This document shows, in pieces, positions 10,899 to 58,248 of a DNA stretch of 64,000 bases; positions within the stretch are counted from its first letter, which is position 1; each line of letters opens with the position of its first letter. Where the stretch lies: contig JAZQAZ010000047.1 of NCBI GenBank assembly GCA_045545475.1, forward strand, positions 1 through 64,000. The letters run 5' to 3'. This stretch comes from Clostridia bacterium. Its GTDB lineage: Bacteria > Bacillota > Clostridia > CAKSNL01 > HGM11501. The notes under the pieces were generated by a model that was given only the letters and a program-made list of their open reading frames with translations, searched no databases and was not told where the DNA came from. The position numbers and the translations under genes were made by a program.

Positions 10899-10982
10899 GC
10901 GAGAGTGGCGGAACTGGCAGACGCGCACGTTTAAGGGGCGTGTGATTTCATCGTACGGGTTCAATTCCCGTCTCTCGCACCA
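10899..10982 (+). tRNA. tRNA-Leu (anticodon AAG)
   Basis: acceptor GCGAGAG/CTCTCGC, A73, CCA, long variable arm; anticodon stem CACGT/GCGTG, loop TT-AAG-GG. Confidence 0.93.
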
Positions 10983-10988
10983 TTTTTT

Positions 10989-11062
10989 TGCCGAATTGTG
11001 TAATGGTAGCACGGCAGACTCTGACTCTGTTTGTCTGGGTTCAAATCCTAGTTCGGCAACCA
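10989..11062 (+). tRNA. tRNA-Gln (CTG)
   Basis: stem GCAGA/TCTGT, loop CT-CTG-AC, GGTTCAAATCC T-arm, CCA. Confidence 0.95.
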
Positions 11063-11101
11063 AAAAAAGAAGAACCACAAGAAGTGTGGTTCTTCTTTTT
11101 T
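11063..11101 (+). terminator. intrinsic terminator of tRNA operon
   Basis: AAAAAAGAAGAACCACA-AGAAG-TGTGGTTCTTCTTTTTT. Confidence 0.85.
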
Positions 11102-11107
11102 CGCTTT

Positions 11108-11201
11108 CCGAACGAATAAGGATTTGAACGAAGTCATAGGACTTTTCCTTTGAAAAGTCCGAAGGTTTTTCCGAGTAGGAAAAACTCAAATCCTAGTTCG
11201 G
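11108..11201. repeat. tRNA T-arm mirror element, copy 1 (Gln-matched)
   Basis: inverted T-arm copy AGGATTTGAAC (11119-11129), core GAAGTCATAGG plus two hairpins, direct copy TCAAATCCTAGTTCGG (11186-11201 = 11041-11056). Confidence 0.85.
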
Positions 11202-11388
11202 ATTAAGGGCGCTAACCTGAAAATTTTATTATTACACTATAACTATTATCTTTGTACAGTACCCAACGGGTGCTGTTATCTTTTTGTCTGTCAAATGCGG
11301 CGGACAATCCGCATAAAACAGTTGAAATTTCGTATATTCTGTGGTATAATCAATTTTACTGTGATTTATTTACGAAAGGAAGATATAA

Positions 11389-57148: not shown

Positions 57149-57222
57149 GGCGCCATGGCCAAGTGGTAAGGCAAAGGTCTGCAACACCTATATCCCCAGT
57201 TCGAGTCTGGGTGGCGCCTCCA
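57149..57222 (+). tRNA. tRNA-Cys (GCA)
   Basis: GGCGCCA/TGGCGCC acceptor, AGGT-CTGCAAC-ACCT, U73, CCA. Confidence 0.95.
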
Positions 57223-57256: not shown

Positions 57257-57432
57257 AATGAAATTTGCCTGCGTCAAGTGAAATACGCTACGCGTATGAA
57301 ATATTGCTTCGCAATGTGAAATATGCCTTGCGGCATATGAAAAGGCAAATTTTATTTCACATTTTTCTGTAAGAAAAATATTTCATAATCCGTAGGGTTA
57401 TTTCATATCAACGAAGTTGATATTTCATTAAA
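57254..57432. repeat. symmetric 'feather' hairpin array with 11-bp terminal inverted repeats
   Basis: TTTAATGAAAT...ATTTCATTAAA ends; five TGAAAW then four ATTTCA linkers separated by short hairpins. Confidence 0.9.
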
Positions 57433-57483: not shown

Positions 57484-57831
57484 ATGAAGGAAAACAAACT
57501 TATAGATTTATCTACGGATTTAGCAGTTAAAATTATAAAACTCTGTGAAACGATAAAAGGACATTATTCACTTGTAAATCAGTTAGAAAGAAGTTCTACA
57601 TCAATCGGGGCAAACATTCACGAAGCTAACTATGCTCACGGAAAGAACGATTTTATTGCAAAATTACAGATTGCTTTGAAAGAATGTTATGAAACAGAAT
57701 ATTGGCTCGAGCTTTTTGTAAAGTCAGAAATTTTAGATAGAGAAACTGCGAAAAATTTATATAATCAATGTGGTACAATTCGAAAAATGTTGATTTCTTC
57801 AATCAACACTGCAAAAAAGAACAGTAATTAG
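57484..57831 (+). CDS. four-helix bundle protein (23S rRNA IVS protein / Avd-like family)
   Basis: NQLERSSTSIGANIHEA, DFIAKLQIALKECYETEYWLEL; GAGGTG RBS. Confidence 0.92.
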   Translation: MKENKLIDLSTDLAVKIIKLCETIKGHYSLVNQLERSSTSIGANIHEANYAHGKNDFIAKLQIALKECYETEYWLELFVKSEILDRETAKNLYNQCGTIRKMLISSINTAKKNSN

Positions 57832-57851
57832 AGCTGGCATCTAAACCATTC

Positions 57852-57868
57852 GGCGCCGTCCAGAAAAA
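57852..57868 (+). repeat. degenerate duplicate of tRNA-Cys 3' end (att-like)
   Basis: GGCGCCGTCCAGAAAAA vs GGCGCCTCCAGAAAAA at 57213-57228 (one inserted G). Confidence 0.65.
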
Positions 57869-57872
57869 CAAG

Positions 57873-57970
57873 CACCATAAAACAGACTCGAACGAAGTCA
57901 TAGGAAAAAATGCGGAGCATTTTGACGTAGTTTTTCAAAACTGCGTTTTGAAAAATCGAGTCTGGGTGGC
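57873..57970. repeat. tRNA T-arm mirror element, copy 2 (Cys-matched)
   Basis: inverted CAGACTCGAAC (57883-57893), core GAAGTCATAGG plus two hairpins, direct TCGAGTCTGGGTGGC (57956-57970 = 57201-57215). Confidence 0.85.
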
Positions 57971-58248
57971 AAACATCGCAAGGACTAAAAAGTCTGCTAT
58001 AAAGTCATAGGCAAAAATGTAAAGCATTTTGCCGGAGGTCAGTGGTTTGGTCAGGAAAATAAATAATGCGGGCATACAGAGAAGAGGTAGCATGATAGAG
58101 CACATCTTTCTGCGAAAGCAGAACTTTTGTTTTTAGAAGGTTGTATATAGAAAATCGTTTTACAATAAATATTTTGCTTGTATCTATTTACTTTGATACT
58201 TAGGTGTGATATACTTGGAGAAAATAATATGATAAAGGGGATAAACAT

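What the first reader, a model, noticed from the sequence alone, without database searches (positions are those of the whole stretch)
11108..11201. tRNA T-arm 'mirror' element: a conserved core whose arms match the neighbouring tRNA (Gln copy)
Seen: after the tRNA-Gln terminator come CCGAAC..AGGATTTGAAC (reverse complement of the Gln T-arm and 3' end), then GAAGTCATA, hairpin GGACTTTTC/GAAAAGTCC, GAAG, hairpin GTTTTTCC/GGAAAAAC, then a 16-nt direct copy of the Gln 3' end. The same layout recurs 47 kb away with Cys-specific arms. In both, the inverted arm stops at G53 and the direct arm starts at T55 of the T-loop. Established: ordinary att scars give only a direct duplicate. Inference: a site-specific mechanism keyed on the T-loop builds a fold-back three-way junction, as a non-autonomous element, an integrase decoy or an anti-tRNA RNA. 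I do not recognise it as a described family.
Basis: partly seen in the sequence, partly recalled or inferred. Interest (0 to 1): 0.85.

Follow-up and report, generated by a model that had tools for sequence, protein, structure and literature searches.

The report
Miniature mirror-armed elements beside tRNA genes
The flagged stretch is one copy of a family of tiny non-coding insertions found next to many tRNA genes in one genus of gut bacteria; each carries a folded core closed by an inverted and a direct copy of its own tRNA's tail, which makes it an unusual kind of site-specific mobile DNA.

Summary
Window 11108-11201 reads: reverse complement of tRNA-Gln positions 70-65 and 63-53, GAAGTCATA, hairpin, GAAG, hairpin, then a 16-nt direct copy of positions 55-70. 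The tRNA-Cys copy lies at 57883-57970.

The layout is much wider than two copies:
- 8 of 35 tRNA genes in this genome carry 13 such units downstream; controls give 0 to 0.9.
- There are at least three unrelated core types.
- A covariance model of this core finds 50 copies in 8 of 14 related genomes, all in one genus, and none in 107 other genera sampled.
- 27 of 30 copies examined follow a same-strand tRNA, and 21 of those 27 match it 11/11 in the inverted arm, across ten isoacceptors.
- Both hairpins covary: 17 of 26 pairs carry compensatory changes.

Related genomes hold empty sites and clean insertions of about 140 bp bounded by 20-22-nt repeats of the tRNA 3' end. A metagenome contig holds an empty allele.

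No Rfam family matches, and five literature searches found no description.

Best reading (about 0.5): non-autonomous miniature integrative elements that recombine in the tRNA T-loop and act through a folded single strand. The enzyme, the strand and the nucleic acid are unknown.

The parts
10989..11062 (+). tRNA-Gln(ctg), the target or anchor gene. Its positions 53-76 supply the sequence of both arms.
   Evidence: ARAGORN; Rfam tRNA, 60.7 bits.
11063..11101 (+). A-tract, hairpin and T-tract terminator immediately after the tRNA. From 11069 it belongs to the 187-bp insert, and it differs from the ancestral terminator.
   Evidence: Sequence. Relatives carry other terminators here, while the ancestral one sits at 11256. 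The X1 contig joins 11068 to 11256.
11108..11129 (+). Inverted arm: CCGAAC (reverse complement of positions 70-65), a 5-nt filler gaata, then AGGATTTGAAC (reverse complement of positions 63-53).
   Evidence: 11/11 match to the tRNA T-arm. It forms helix P1 of the model.
11130..11185 (+). Type A core: GAAGTCATA, hairpin 1 (11139-11160), GAAG, hairpin 2 (11165-11185).
   Evidence: Fold. Covariance model R2, 81.1 bits. Compensatory changes in 7 of 9 and 6 of 8 pairs of the two hairpins.
11186..11201 (+). Direct arm: TCAAATCCTAGTTCGG, identical to tRNA-Gln positions 55-70. It pairs with the inverted arm.
11202..11255 (+). Tail of the insert (ATTAAGGGCGCTAACCTG... AT-rich). It is conserved in G001 and belongs to the 187-bp presence/absence segment 11069-11255.
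   Evidence: Contig joint 11068->11256 in DNA run X1.
11256..11285 (+). Ancestral terminator of tRNA-Gln (ACAGTACCCAACGGGTGCTGT plus a T-run). In G005 it follows the tRNA directly.
   Evidence: Terminator scan; locus comparison.
57149..57222 (+). tRNA-Cys(gca), anchor of the second copy.
57276..57430 (.). Inverted pair of Gut-1 RNA motifs (57276-57348 on the + strand, 57349-57430 on the - strand). This is cargo between tRNA-Cys and the mirror unit.
   Evidence: Rfam RF01706, 66.3 and 50.3 bits against a gathering score of 50.
57484..57831 (+). 115-aa ORF, a 23S rRNA-intervening-sequence protein (four-helix bundle). This is cargo.
   Evidence: Pfam PF05635, E 4.2e-27.
57836..57882 (+). GGCATCTAAACCATTCGG motif, then GGCGCC (57852-57857, reverse complement of tRNA-Cys positions 72-67), then the remnant of a terminator. 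This is the degenerate outer part of the inverted arm.
   Evidence: The G005:C137 relative keeps the complete hairpin.
57883..57970 (+). Cys mirror unit: CAGACTCGAAC (reverse complement of positions 63-53), GAAGTCATAGG, hairpin, GACGTAG, hairpin, then TCGAGTCTGGGTGGC (positions 55-69).
   Evidence: R2, 64.8 bits; arm match 11 inverted and 15 direct; fold.
57990..58048 (+). Armless partial unit (AAAGTCATAGG, hairpin, CCGGAGG).
   Evidence: Sequence. The hit with model R1 is weak: 12.2 bits, E 0.85.

Best explanation
The flagged stretch is one copy of a genus-specific family of non-coding, non-autonomous insertion modules of about 140-210 bp. They occupy the 3' flank of tRNA genes.

A module consists of five parts:
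- a replacement terminator placed right after the tRNA
- a short AT-rich spacer
- an inverted copy of the tRNA T-loop and 3' T-stem (positions 63-53, sometimes extending into the acceptor)
- a structured core, here GAAC-(TTG/GAA)GTCRTAGG, hairpin, CCGAAG, hairpin
- a direct copy of the tRNA 3' end starting in the T-loop

Inferred mechanism. The module enters by site-specific recombination whose crossover lies in the T-loop of the tRNA gene. The module supplies the new 3' end and terminator. The displaced native 3' end stays behind as the direct arm. Repeated events stack modules into arrays and trap cargo.

The inverted arm pairs with the direct arm and closes the core into a three-way junction. 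Both hairpins are kept by compensatory changes, so the element probably has to fold as a single strand, DNA or RNA, to be mobilised or kept.

The recombinase acts in trans and is not identified. Xer-like tyrosine recombinases are present in every genome searched.

Shown: the anatomy, the arm matching, the covariation, and the presence/absence alleles with 20-22-nt repeats.
Inferred: recombination as the mechanism, the single-stranded form, and the enzyme.
For: 1. Insertion footprints. G011 has tRNA-Gln followed directly by terminator X. G004 has tRNA-Gln, a new terminator, spacer, inverted arm and core, then a full 22-nt repeat of positions 55-76, then terminator X. At tRNA-Arg(ccg), G009 and G011 are empty. 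G007 and G008 carry a 142-bp insert ending in a 20-nt repeat of positions 57-76, followed by the terminator that G009 has directly after the tRNA. In DNA run X1 one contig joins window 11068 to 11256 and skips the 187-bp insert.

2. tRNA linkage and arm matching. Of 30 model hits examined, 27 have a same-strand upstream tRNA, and 21 of them sit 47-63 nt from its end. The inverted arm matches 11/11 in 21 of those 27. Ten isoacceptors are involved, plus Ser-gct in G000. All 6 model hits in G000 follow a tRNA 3' end.

3. Genome-wide signal against controls: 8 of 35 tRNAs carry 13 units downstream, 0 upstream, and a mean of 0.86 with permuted arms.

4. Structure under selection. On 11 sequences 96.3% of cells are paired and 17 of 26 pairs carry compensatory changes. 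None of 500 shuffles reaches this, and slid controls give 30-63%. At the Arg-ccg locus the 11-nt inverted arm is invariant in all 7 unit-bearing genomes. Direct-arm positions 55-68 are invariant in the 6 of them that keep a full unit (G001 retains only TCGCATCGG). The spacer and hairpin sequences differ throughout.

5. Tandem arrays mix core types, and cargo sits between units: a 6.5-kb island with an SLH-domain protein and no integrase in G009, and the Gut-1 pair with the PF05635 gene at tRNA-Cys here.

6. There is no ORF inside the units, and no integrase lies between the tRNA and the unit.
Against: 1. No cognate recombinase, autonomous parent element or excised circle was found. PF00589 recombinases occur in all 14 genomes, including those without type A units, so they do not discriminate.

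2. An ordinary double-stranded attP does not need an inverted copy of the core or covarying hairpins. The one classical integrase island in this genome, at tRNA-Lys(ttt), shows no inverted arm at either junction read, though no explicit arm search was run there.

3. At the flagged Gln locus the 187-bp presence/absence segment is not bounded by tRNA repeats. The direct arm stops at position 70 and is followed by 54 nt that belong to the element. In G005 and G002 the same unit sits at a different point, downstream of the ancestral terminator. This locus is therefore a rearranged mosaic, not a clean integration product.

4. One core subtype occurs at four isoacceptors with arms matched to each: Leu-tag, Thr-cgt, Pro-cgg and Trp. 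A simple integrase model does not explain how the inverted arm is retargeted. Two copies do carry 2-3 mismatches.

5. Expression was not tested, so an RNA function cannot be excluded.
Confidence: 0.5

Rival explanations
1. Fold-back recombination site. The inverted arm, core and direct arm together form the recombination substrate as folded single-stranded DNA, as integron attC sites and the CTX phage attP(+) do. The arm pairing rebuilds a duplex copy of the tRNA gene's positions 55-63(-70). The T-loop of the tRNA gene plays the role of attI, and the 3' flank of a tRNA gene is a cassette platform.
For: - Conserved structure with variable sequence and compensatory changes.
- Arrays of units of different core types with cargo between them, and a 6.5-kb cargo island bracketed by two identical units.
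- The paired arms are sequence-identical to the target duplex.
- Hairpin 2 abuts the direct arm with a 0-1-nt gap, which allows coaxial stacking.
- Many loops are C-GNA-G: CGAAG 7, CGGAG 4 and CGCAG 3 of 77 loops, with CCGAAG 7 and CCGCAG 3 in addition. From memory, these are exceptionally stable in DNA.
- Only Xer-family recombinases need to be supplied in trans.
Against: - The RYYYAAC/GTTRRRY boxes of attC are absent, and the AAC/GTT polarity within the stem is the opposite of attC (sequence).
- The two recombinases scanned score far below the integron-integrase cut-offs: 58.5 and 54.8 bits against 265.
- No single-stranded intermediate was observed.
- G:T against A:C counts favour one strand only in hairpin 2 (17 to 2), and those counts are not independent.
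- GNRA and UUCG loops, typical of RNA, also occur.
Confidence: 0.2
2. Small RNA genes or cis-acting RNA elements. Each unit is transcribed from an AT-rich -10-like spacer or by read-through from the tRNA. The RNA consists of a three-way junction followed by a genuine tRNA 3' end, CCA and a terminator. It works as RNA, for example as a decoy for tRNA 3'-end enzymes, a processing signal or an insulator. Its mobility is secondary.
For: - Covariation, with GNRA and UUCG loops.
- A terminator follows many units, and a full 55-76 copy with CCA occurs in several.
- The spacer carries TGG followed by AT-rich -10-like strings 6-9 nt upstream of the inverted arm.
- A related array of hairpins joined by CGAAG sits behind a consensus promoter in a prophage-like region at C40:9229.
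Against: - The promoter scan finds no promoter for the unit on either strand at the Gln locus.
- The direct arm is truncated at position 68-71 in many conserved copies, so those RNAs would have no CCA end.
- Unit presence varies between close relatives.
- RNA contigs of one metatranscriptome covered only the tRNAs. This is not evidence either way.
Confidence: 0.15
3. REP/RAYT-type or IS200/IS605-type hairpin elements. The hairpins preceded by (G/A)TAGG are REP-like sites handled as single-stranded DNA by a Y1 HUH transposase.
For: - GTAGG or ATAGG immediately 5' of hairpin 1 resembles the GTAG head of REPs (the REP head is described in PMC3733652, of which I saw only the search listing and abstract).
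- A 169-aa Y1_Tnp-like protein is encoded at G000:C30:129615-130124, and similar genes occur in several relatives.
- A partial Y1_Tnp hit lies about 500 nt downstream of a unit at a contig end, G005:C104.
Against: - Only 6 copies occur in G000, all at tRNA genes, not hundreds dispersed through the genome.
- The head is not conserved as GTAG; many copies have ATAGG, AAAGG, CGAGG or CCAGG.
- Y1 transposition makes no 20-22-nt repeats.
- Y1_Tnp was not detected in G003 and G009, which carry units.
- The gene at C30 is not flanked by such hairpins.
Confidence: 0.08
4. Not mobile. The mirror is a by-product of replication template switching at the terminator hairpin or of self-primed (snap-back) copying of the tRNA 3' end. 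The arms are kept alike by gene conversion with the tRNA gene.
For: - In G006 the whole 3' end is mirrored around the terminator: reverse complement of positions 76-64, then attgaa, then reverse complement of positions 63-53.
- The terminators are A-tract/T-tract palindromes that often extend to CCA/TGG.
- Invariant arms next to variable flanks would also fit gene conversion.
Against: - The acceptor zone is mirrored clearly only in G006 Arg (13/13), the Gln lineage (9/13, level with the maximum reached by the shuffled controls) and Cys. Over 22 loci the mean is 6.9 of 13 against 5.5 for shuffled controls.
- The same conserved core recurs at eleven different isoacceptors, and three core families share the layout. 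Local replication errors cannot produce that.
- Reverse transcriptase was detected in only 4 of 14 genomes.
Confidence: 0.05

Closest known systems
Cis-mobilizable elements (CIMEs) and other integrase-less islets left by site-specific accretion at tRNA genes. The concept is recalled. PMC5704250 and PMC7563491 were seen only as search listings and abstract starts.
   Same: - They are flanked by direct repeats of the tRNA 3' end.
- They carry no integrase of their own.
- They form tandem accretion arrays.
- Cargo is trapped between repeats.
   Different: - These units are 10-100 times smaller, at about 140 bp.
- They carry a conserved, covarying three-way-junction core and an inverted copy of the att sequence.
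- The same core serves eleven isoacceptors.
- No parent ICE or IME with the same ends was found.
T-loop class of tRNA integration sites used by tyrosine integrases (Williams 2002, Nucleic Acids Research; recalled, not read here).
   Same: The repeat begins inside the T-loop, at position 55 or 57, and runs to the 3' end. The tRNA is restored by sequence that the element brings in.
   Different: The sequence to the left of the repeat does not resemble the 5' T-stem half-site. The symmetry is supplied by a distant inverted arm instead.
Integron attC sites and the folded attP(+) of CTX phage. Both are single-stranded fold-back recombination sites (recalled).
   Same: - An imperfect palindrome whose structure, not sequence, is conserved.
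- A branched central part.
- Cassette-like arrays next to a fixed chromosomal site.
   Different: - The target is a tRNA gene, not attI or dif.
- There are no R/L boxes.
- The repeat is 20-22 nt, not 6.
- No integron integrase was detected among the two recombinases scanned.
REP/BIME elements with their RAYT transposase (PMC3733652, abstract seen; the rest recalled).
   Same: A short hairpin preceded by a (G/A)TAG-like head. A Y1-type gene is present in the genome.
   Different: Copy number is low, linkage to tRNA genes is strict, the arms are tRNA-specific, and there are long direct repeats.

Membership tests
CIME-like miniature integrative element at a tRNA att site | Bounded by direct repeats identical to the tRNA 3' end, with empty-site alleles in relatives. 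| tested here: met
   G004 against G011 at tRNA-Gln has a 22-nt repeat. G007 and G008 against G009 at tRNA-Arg have a 20-nt repeat. The flagged Gln copy itself has only a 16-nt arm, and its indel boundaries are not repeats.
CIME-like miniature integrative element at a tRNA att site | No recombinase gene inside the element. | tested here: met
   The units are 67-90 nt and the modules about 140-210 bp, with no ORF. The cargo islands hold no PF00589 domain.
CIME-like miniature integrative element at a tRNA att site | A related autonomous element (ICE, IME or phage) with the same att ends and a cognate integrase. | tested here: not met
   No integrase lies beside any unit examined. The classical island at tRNA-Lys uses an anticodon-loop site and a different arm architecture. 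No match was found in viral contigs. The search was limited to exact-motif scans.
CIME-like miniature integrative element at a tRNA att site | Excision to a circle and re-integration. | not testable with these tools
   Only assembled contigs of public runs were available.
Integron attC site | R''/R' boxes RYYYAAC ... GTTRRRY at the outer end of the stem. | tested here: not met
   The GAAC of the inverted arm lies at the inner end of the stem, and the direct arm starts at TC, not GTT.
Integron attC site | An integron integrase (IntI) in the genome. | tested here: inconclusive
   Two of the five PF00589 genes of G000 were scanned. They score 58.5 and 54.8 bits against a 265-bit cut-off for integrase_gron. 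The other three were not scanned.
REP / RAYT | High-copy dispersed 20-40-nt palindromes with a conserved GTAG or CGTC head. | tested here: not met
   There are 6 copies in G000, all next to a tRNA. The head varies: GTAGG, ATAGG, AAAGG, CGAGG and others.
REP / RAYT | A RAYT gene flanked by its REPs. | tested here: not met
   The Y1_Tnp-like gene at C30:129615-130124 has no such hairpins beside it.
IS110 bridge-RNA element | A DEDD recombinase (PF01548) encoded beside the RNA. | tested here: not met
   0 of 14 genomes have PF01548.
Any Rfam 15 family, including hammerhead, twister and other small ribozymes and Gut-1 | A score at or above the family's gathering threshold. | tested here: not met
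   Nothing reaches gathering on the unit. The best sub-threshold matches are 27.7 bits or less against gathering scores of 56-99. Nothing was found on the other core types.
tRNA-primed or self-primed retroelement | A reverse transcriptase in the genomes that carry the units. | tested here: not met
   PF00078 occurs in 4 of 14 genomes. It was not detected in G001, G003, G006 and G009, which carry units. The genomes are 87-97% complete.

The most novel reading that the evidence does not exclude
The units are attC-like, single-strand-folded recombination sites, and the 3' flank of a tRNA gene is an integron-like cassette platform. The T-loop acts as the fixed attachment point. The inverted arm works as a built-in, retargetable copy of the target, rebuilding the target duplex or guiding the choice of tRNA. 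A host Xer-type recombinase stacks non-coding and coding cassettes there, including Gut-1/PF05635 modules and surface-protein islands. This would be a new class of target-templated site-specific recombination outside integrons and dif.
Probability: 0.17. Interest if true: 0.88.

Novelty: new variant of a known kind. Interest (0 to 1): 0.62.

Why it matters
tRNA genes are the classic landing sites for genomic islands, but the known players are integrase-bearing elements and their inert scars.

This genus shows a population of tiny structured insertions that stay matched to eleven different tRNAs. They are kept by compensatory evolution, and they bracket cargo. If the fold-back form is the substrate, site-specific recombination at tRNA genes can be specified by the element's own nucleic acid instead of by protein-DNA contacts alone. 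That would bear on how islands assemble and on programmable integration.

The finding also gives a genomic context to two orphan items, the Gut-1 RNA motif and the 23S-rRNA-IVS proteins. Here both sit together in the same tRNA flanks.

Tried and rejected
Searches that led nowhere:
Nearly all were chance matches in coding DNA. Only L119 (the same contig as G005:C137) was real.
- A loose regular expression for the core in G000 gave 35 matches, 33 of them coding-region noise and 2 of them real or related sites (C20:14236 and C40:59377).
- The viral contigs pattern scan gave 10 loci, all coding-like chance matches.
- Two metagenome-contig scans gave 0 matches.
- The genome contigs structured pattern gave 29 loci. 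Five of them, in two Clostridia MAGs, are real; the other 24 are chance.

Mechanisms considered and rejected:
- IS110 bridge RNA: no PF01548 in any of the 14 genomes.
- Hammerhead or other ribozymes: the junction sequences do not fit the hammerhead core as I recall it, and no Rfam ribozyme matches.
- IS200/IS605-type insertion: it does not explain the 20-22-nt repeats.
- Run-off snap-back copying as a general origin: the acceptor zone is mirrored only in a few lineages.
- The multi-copy 277-aa tyrosine recombinase of G008, which lies 580 nt downstream of tRNA-Gln there: the other six copies examined have no tRNA nearby.

Tests without a verdict:
- RNA run X15, held as contigs, covered only the tRNAs and had no cover on the unit. 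No conclusion on expression can be drawn.
- Type C units did not fold better than shuffles: z -0.34.
- Five literature searches found no description of such elements. All results were seen only as listings and abstract starts. No paper was read, and supplements are closed.
Full report
**1. What is at the coordinates.**

tRNA-Leu(aag) lies at 10899-10982 and tRNA-Gln(ctg) at 10989-11062. They are followed by an A-tract, hairpin and T-tract terminator at 11063-11101. After that the sequence runs as follows:
- CCGAAC-gaata-AGGATTTGAAC at 11108-11129, the reverse complement of tRNA-Gln positions 70-65 and 63-53
- GAAGTCATA
- a 9-bp hairpin at 11139-11160
- GAAG
- an 8-bp hairpin at 11165-11185
- TCAAATCCTAGTTCGG at 11186-11201, identical to positions 55-70

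The second copy lies 46.8 kb away. Its core is preceded by CAGACTCGAAC, the reverse complement of tRNA-Cys positions 63-53. It is followed by TCGAGTCTGGGTGGC, positions 55-69, at 57883-57970.

The Gln unit folds as a three-way junction on either strand with z about -5. The Cys unit folds with z -2.5 to -3.1.

**2. It is not a two-copy oddity.**

I ran ARAGORN on the laid genome and searched downstream of each of the 35 tRNA genes for copies of its own 3' end. The same layout is common: tRNA, terminator, spacer, inverted T-arm, structured core, direct copy of the 3' end, and often another terminator.

With strict criteria (at most 1 mismatch in each arm), 8 of 35 tRNAs carry 13 units downstream. 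None carries one upstream. Permuting arms among tRNAs gives a mean of 0.86 and a maximum of 3.

There are at least three unrelated cores:
- Type A is the one flagged. It occurs at Gln, Cys, Arg-ccg, Leu-tag, Ser-gct and the displaced tRNA-Lys(ttt) end on C25, which are the six model hits. Reduced copies that model R2 does not detect lie at Thr-cgt and a Met gene.
- Type B occurs at Leu-caa in three tandem copies, and at Leu-tag.
- Type C occurs at Trp and Ser-gct.

Arrays mix the types. In all types the inverted arm ends at the complement of position 53, or 51 in type B. The direct arm starts at position 55 in type A, 59 in type B and 54-58 in type C.

A type B unit folds with the two arms closing a multi-branch structure, z -3.8. 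A type C unit does not fold better than shuffles.

**3. A model of type A and its distribution.**

I built a covariance model from four relatives and rebuilt it from 11 hits. The model has three helices. On those 11 sequences:
- 96.3% of cells are paired.
- 17 of 26 pairs have compensatory changes.
- None of 500 shuffles reaches this.
- Slid controls pair at 30-63%.

The alignment was fitted to the model, so these figures lean towards it.

The model finds 6 copies in G000. It finds 50 copies in 8 of the 14 genomes that make up the whole order held here, all in one genus. In a sample of 151 genomes of the class, hits came only from that genus: 3 genomes, and 1 of 108 genera.

An exact structured pattern over 185,579 species genomes gave 29 loci. 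Five are real, in two uncultured Clostridia MAGs of animal gut. Viral contigs gave only chance hits. JGI metagenome contigs gave none.

Rfam has no match at gathering or relaxed thresholds.

**4.

Of the 30 hits fetched as loci:
- 27 have a same-strand tRNA upstream.
- 21 of those sit 47-63 nt from its end, which is just a terminator and a spacer.
- The other six sit 149-661 nt away, behind another unit or cargo.

The inverted arm matches the tRNA at 11 of 11 positions in 21 of the 27, at 8-10 in five, and at 5 in one (a second tandem unit). The direct arm matches over 9-22 nt. Ten isoacceptors are involved, and Ser-gct in G000 makes eleven.

Of the three loci without a called tRNA, two show a tRNA-Lys 3' end 50 nt upstream. 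The third is a duplicate unit 6.5 kb from tRNA-Cys in G009. An island encoding an SLH-domain surface protein, with no integrase, lies between the two units.

**5. Evidence that these are insertions.**

At the Leu-Gln locus, G007, G008, G009 and G011 have no unit.
- G011 has tRNA-Gln followed by a terminator.
- G004 has tRNA-Gln, another terminator, spacer, inverted arm and core, then a complete 22-nt repeat of positions 55-76, and only then the G011-type terminator.

At tRNA-Arg(ccg), G009 and G011 are empty. G007 and G008 carry a 142-bp insert with a different core and a 20-nt repeat of positions 57-76 in front of the ancestral terminator. G006 has three tandem units.

In a bovine-gut DNA run, one contig joins window 11068 to 11256 with TA in between and skips 187 bp. 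Another run holds the alternative arrangement seen in G005 and G002.

These are the footprints of site-specific insertion at the tRNA 3' end with a crossover in the T-loop.

The flagged Gln copy itself is not a clean case:
- Its direct arm stops at position 70.
- 54 further bases belong to the insert.
- The same unit sits at another point in G005 and G002.

**6. What argues for a folded single strand.**

At the Arg-ccg locus the hairpin sequences differ between genomes but stay paired. The 11-nt inverted arm is invariant in all seven unit-bearing genomes. Direct-arm positions 55-68 are invariant in the six of them that keep a full unit; G001 retains only TCGCATCGG. The neighbouring spacer and downstream flank diverge.

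A double-stranded protein-binding site would not show compensatory changes.

Which strand folds, and whether it folds as DNA or RNA, is open:
- G:T against A:C counts are 4 to 5 in the arm helix, 5 to 5 in hairpin 1 and 17 to 2 in hairpin 2. The last figure favours the tRNA-sense strand but rests on related copies.
- Loops are often C-GNA-G, which from memory are very stable in DNA. GNRA loops and one UUCG loop also occur.

**7. Enzymes.**

- PF00589 recombinases occur in all 14 genomes. The two scanned in G000 are Xer-like and fall below every curated cut-off.
- IS110-type recombinases are absent from all 14.
- Reverse transcriptase occurs in 4 of 14.
- Y1 HUH proteins occur in 9 of 14 at E <= 0.001, and in 8 above the cut-off. 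One is a 169-aa RAYT-like gene in G000 that is not flanked by such hairpins.

None of these tracks the distribution of the units.

The one classical island in G000 has an integrase next to tRNA-Lys(ttt) on contig C40. Its other end is a partial tRNA-Lys starting in the anticodon loop, on contig C25. Neither junction, as read, shows an inverted arm, though I ran no explicit arm search there. Type A units lie beyond the displaced tRNA end.

**8. Reading.**

The best-supported account is a family of miniature, non-autonomous integrative modules. They use the tRNA T-loop as their crossover site, bring a replacement 3' end and terminator, and leave the native 3' end as the direct arm. They need a folded single-stranded form in which the inverted arm pairs with the direct arm.

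I put this at about 0.5.

A sharper version makes the fold-back the recombination substrate, in the manner of attC or CTX phage, and makes the tRNA flank a cassette platform. I put that at about 0.2.

RNA function, REP/RAYT-type handling and replication artefacts are the remaining rivals.

Three things stay unexplained:
- how the inverted arm is retargeted when one core subtype serves four isoacceptors
- which enzyme acts
- why the spacer keeps an AATG(A/T)A-like motif just before the inverted arm

**9. Limits.**

- All relatives are incomplete MAGs of one genus, and kin are not independent.
- Only contigs of public runs could be laid.
- Papers were seen only as listings and abstracts, and their supplements are closed.
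- The comparisons with CIMEs, attC, CTX phage, the T-loop integrase class and GNA loops rest on recalled knowledge.

Noticed in passing
window 57276-57430 and 57484-57831; G000:C48:43049-43660; L137 359-535 (G000:C4); G000:C9:1820-2000: Inverted pairs of the orphan Gut-1 RNA motif (RF01706) begin right after tRNA terminators. At two loci (tRNA-Cys and tRNA-Tyr) they form the leader of a PF05635 (23S rRNA IVS protein) gene. Two of the 4 PF05635 genes of G000 lie directly downstream of tRNA clusters, and one in G013 lies 220 nt after tRNA-Gln.
   Followed up: partly
window 57836-57853; G000:C3:988, C9:1820(-), C42:2475: The 18-nt motif GGCATCTAAACCATTCGG, usually followed by CTCTTCCAAA and a terminator, occurs 4 times in G000. 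It also occurs in G003 and G005, always at the distal end of inserts in tRNA flanks. Its function is unknown.
   Followed up: partly
G000:C42:479-2900 (L138): About 2 kb downstream of tRNA-Ser(gga), beyond an AraC-like gene and a creatininase-like gene, lies a direct tRNA fragment (positions 49-59). A 62-nt insert sits inside its T-loop, flanked by a GAA duplication, and positions 57-76 follow. There is no inverted arm.
   Followed up: no
G000:C40:9060-9300 (- strand; L135): A consensus promoter is followed by an array of hairpins joined by (G/C)CGAAG, including AGTCATAGG, and by a terminator. It lies upstream of a phage-like gene and is not at a tRNA. It is related in style to the type A core but only weakly matched: 16.9 bits with model R1.
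   Followed up: partly
G000:C40:22425-23264 and G000:C25:10560-10700: A classical tyrosine-integrase island sits in tRNA-Lys(ttt). The integrase and GTGGTAC repeats lie beside the intact tRNA on C40. A partial tRNA-Lys starting in the anticodon loop lies on C25, followed by two type A units.
   Followed up: partly
G008 (L206-L212): A 277-aa tyrosine recombinase (MFITEEKI...) is present in at least seven near-identical copies in different contexts. This suggests a small recombinase-borne mobile element. One copy lies 580 nt after tRNA-Gln.
   Followed up: partly
G000:C2:90400-91186 (L136); C20:13960-14150: Type B units contain the reverse complement of positions 63-51, then taaga, then a direct copy of positions 51-55 that changes with the tRNA (GGGTT at Leu-caa, AGGTT at Leu-tag). 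The core follows, and then positions 59-76. The core therefore sits inside the T-loop of a partial tRNA copy.
   Followed up: partly
G000:C30:129615-130124: A 169-aa Y1 HUH (RAYT-like) gene scores weakly on PF01797 (25.7 bits). Similar 166-179-aa genes occur in several relatives.
   Followed up: partly
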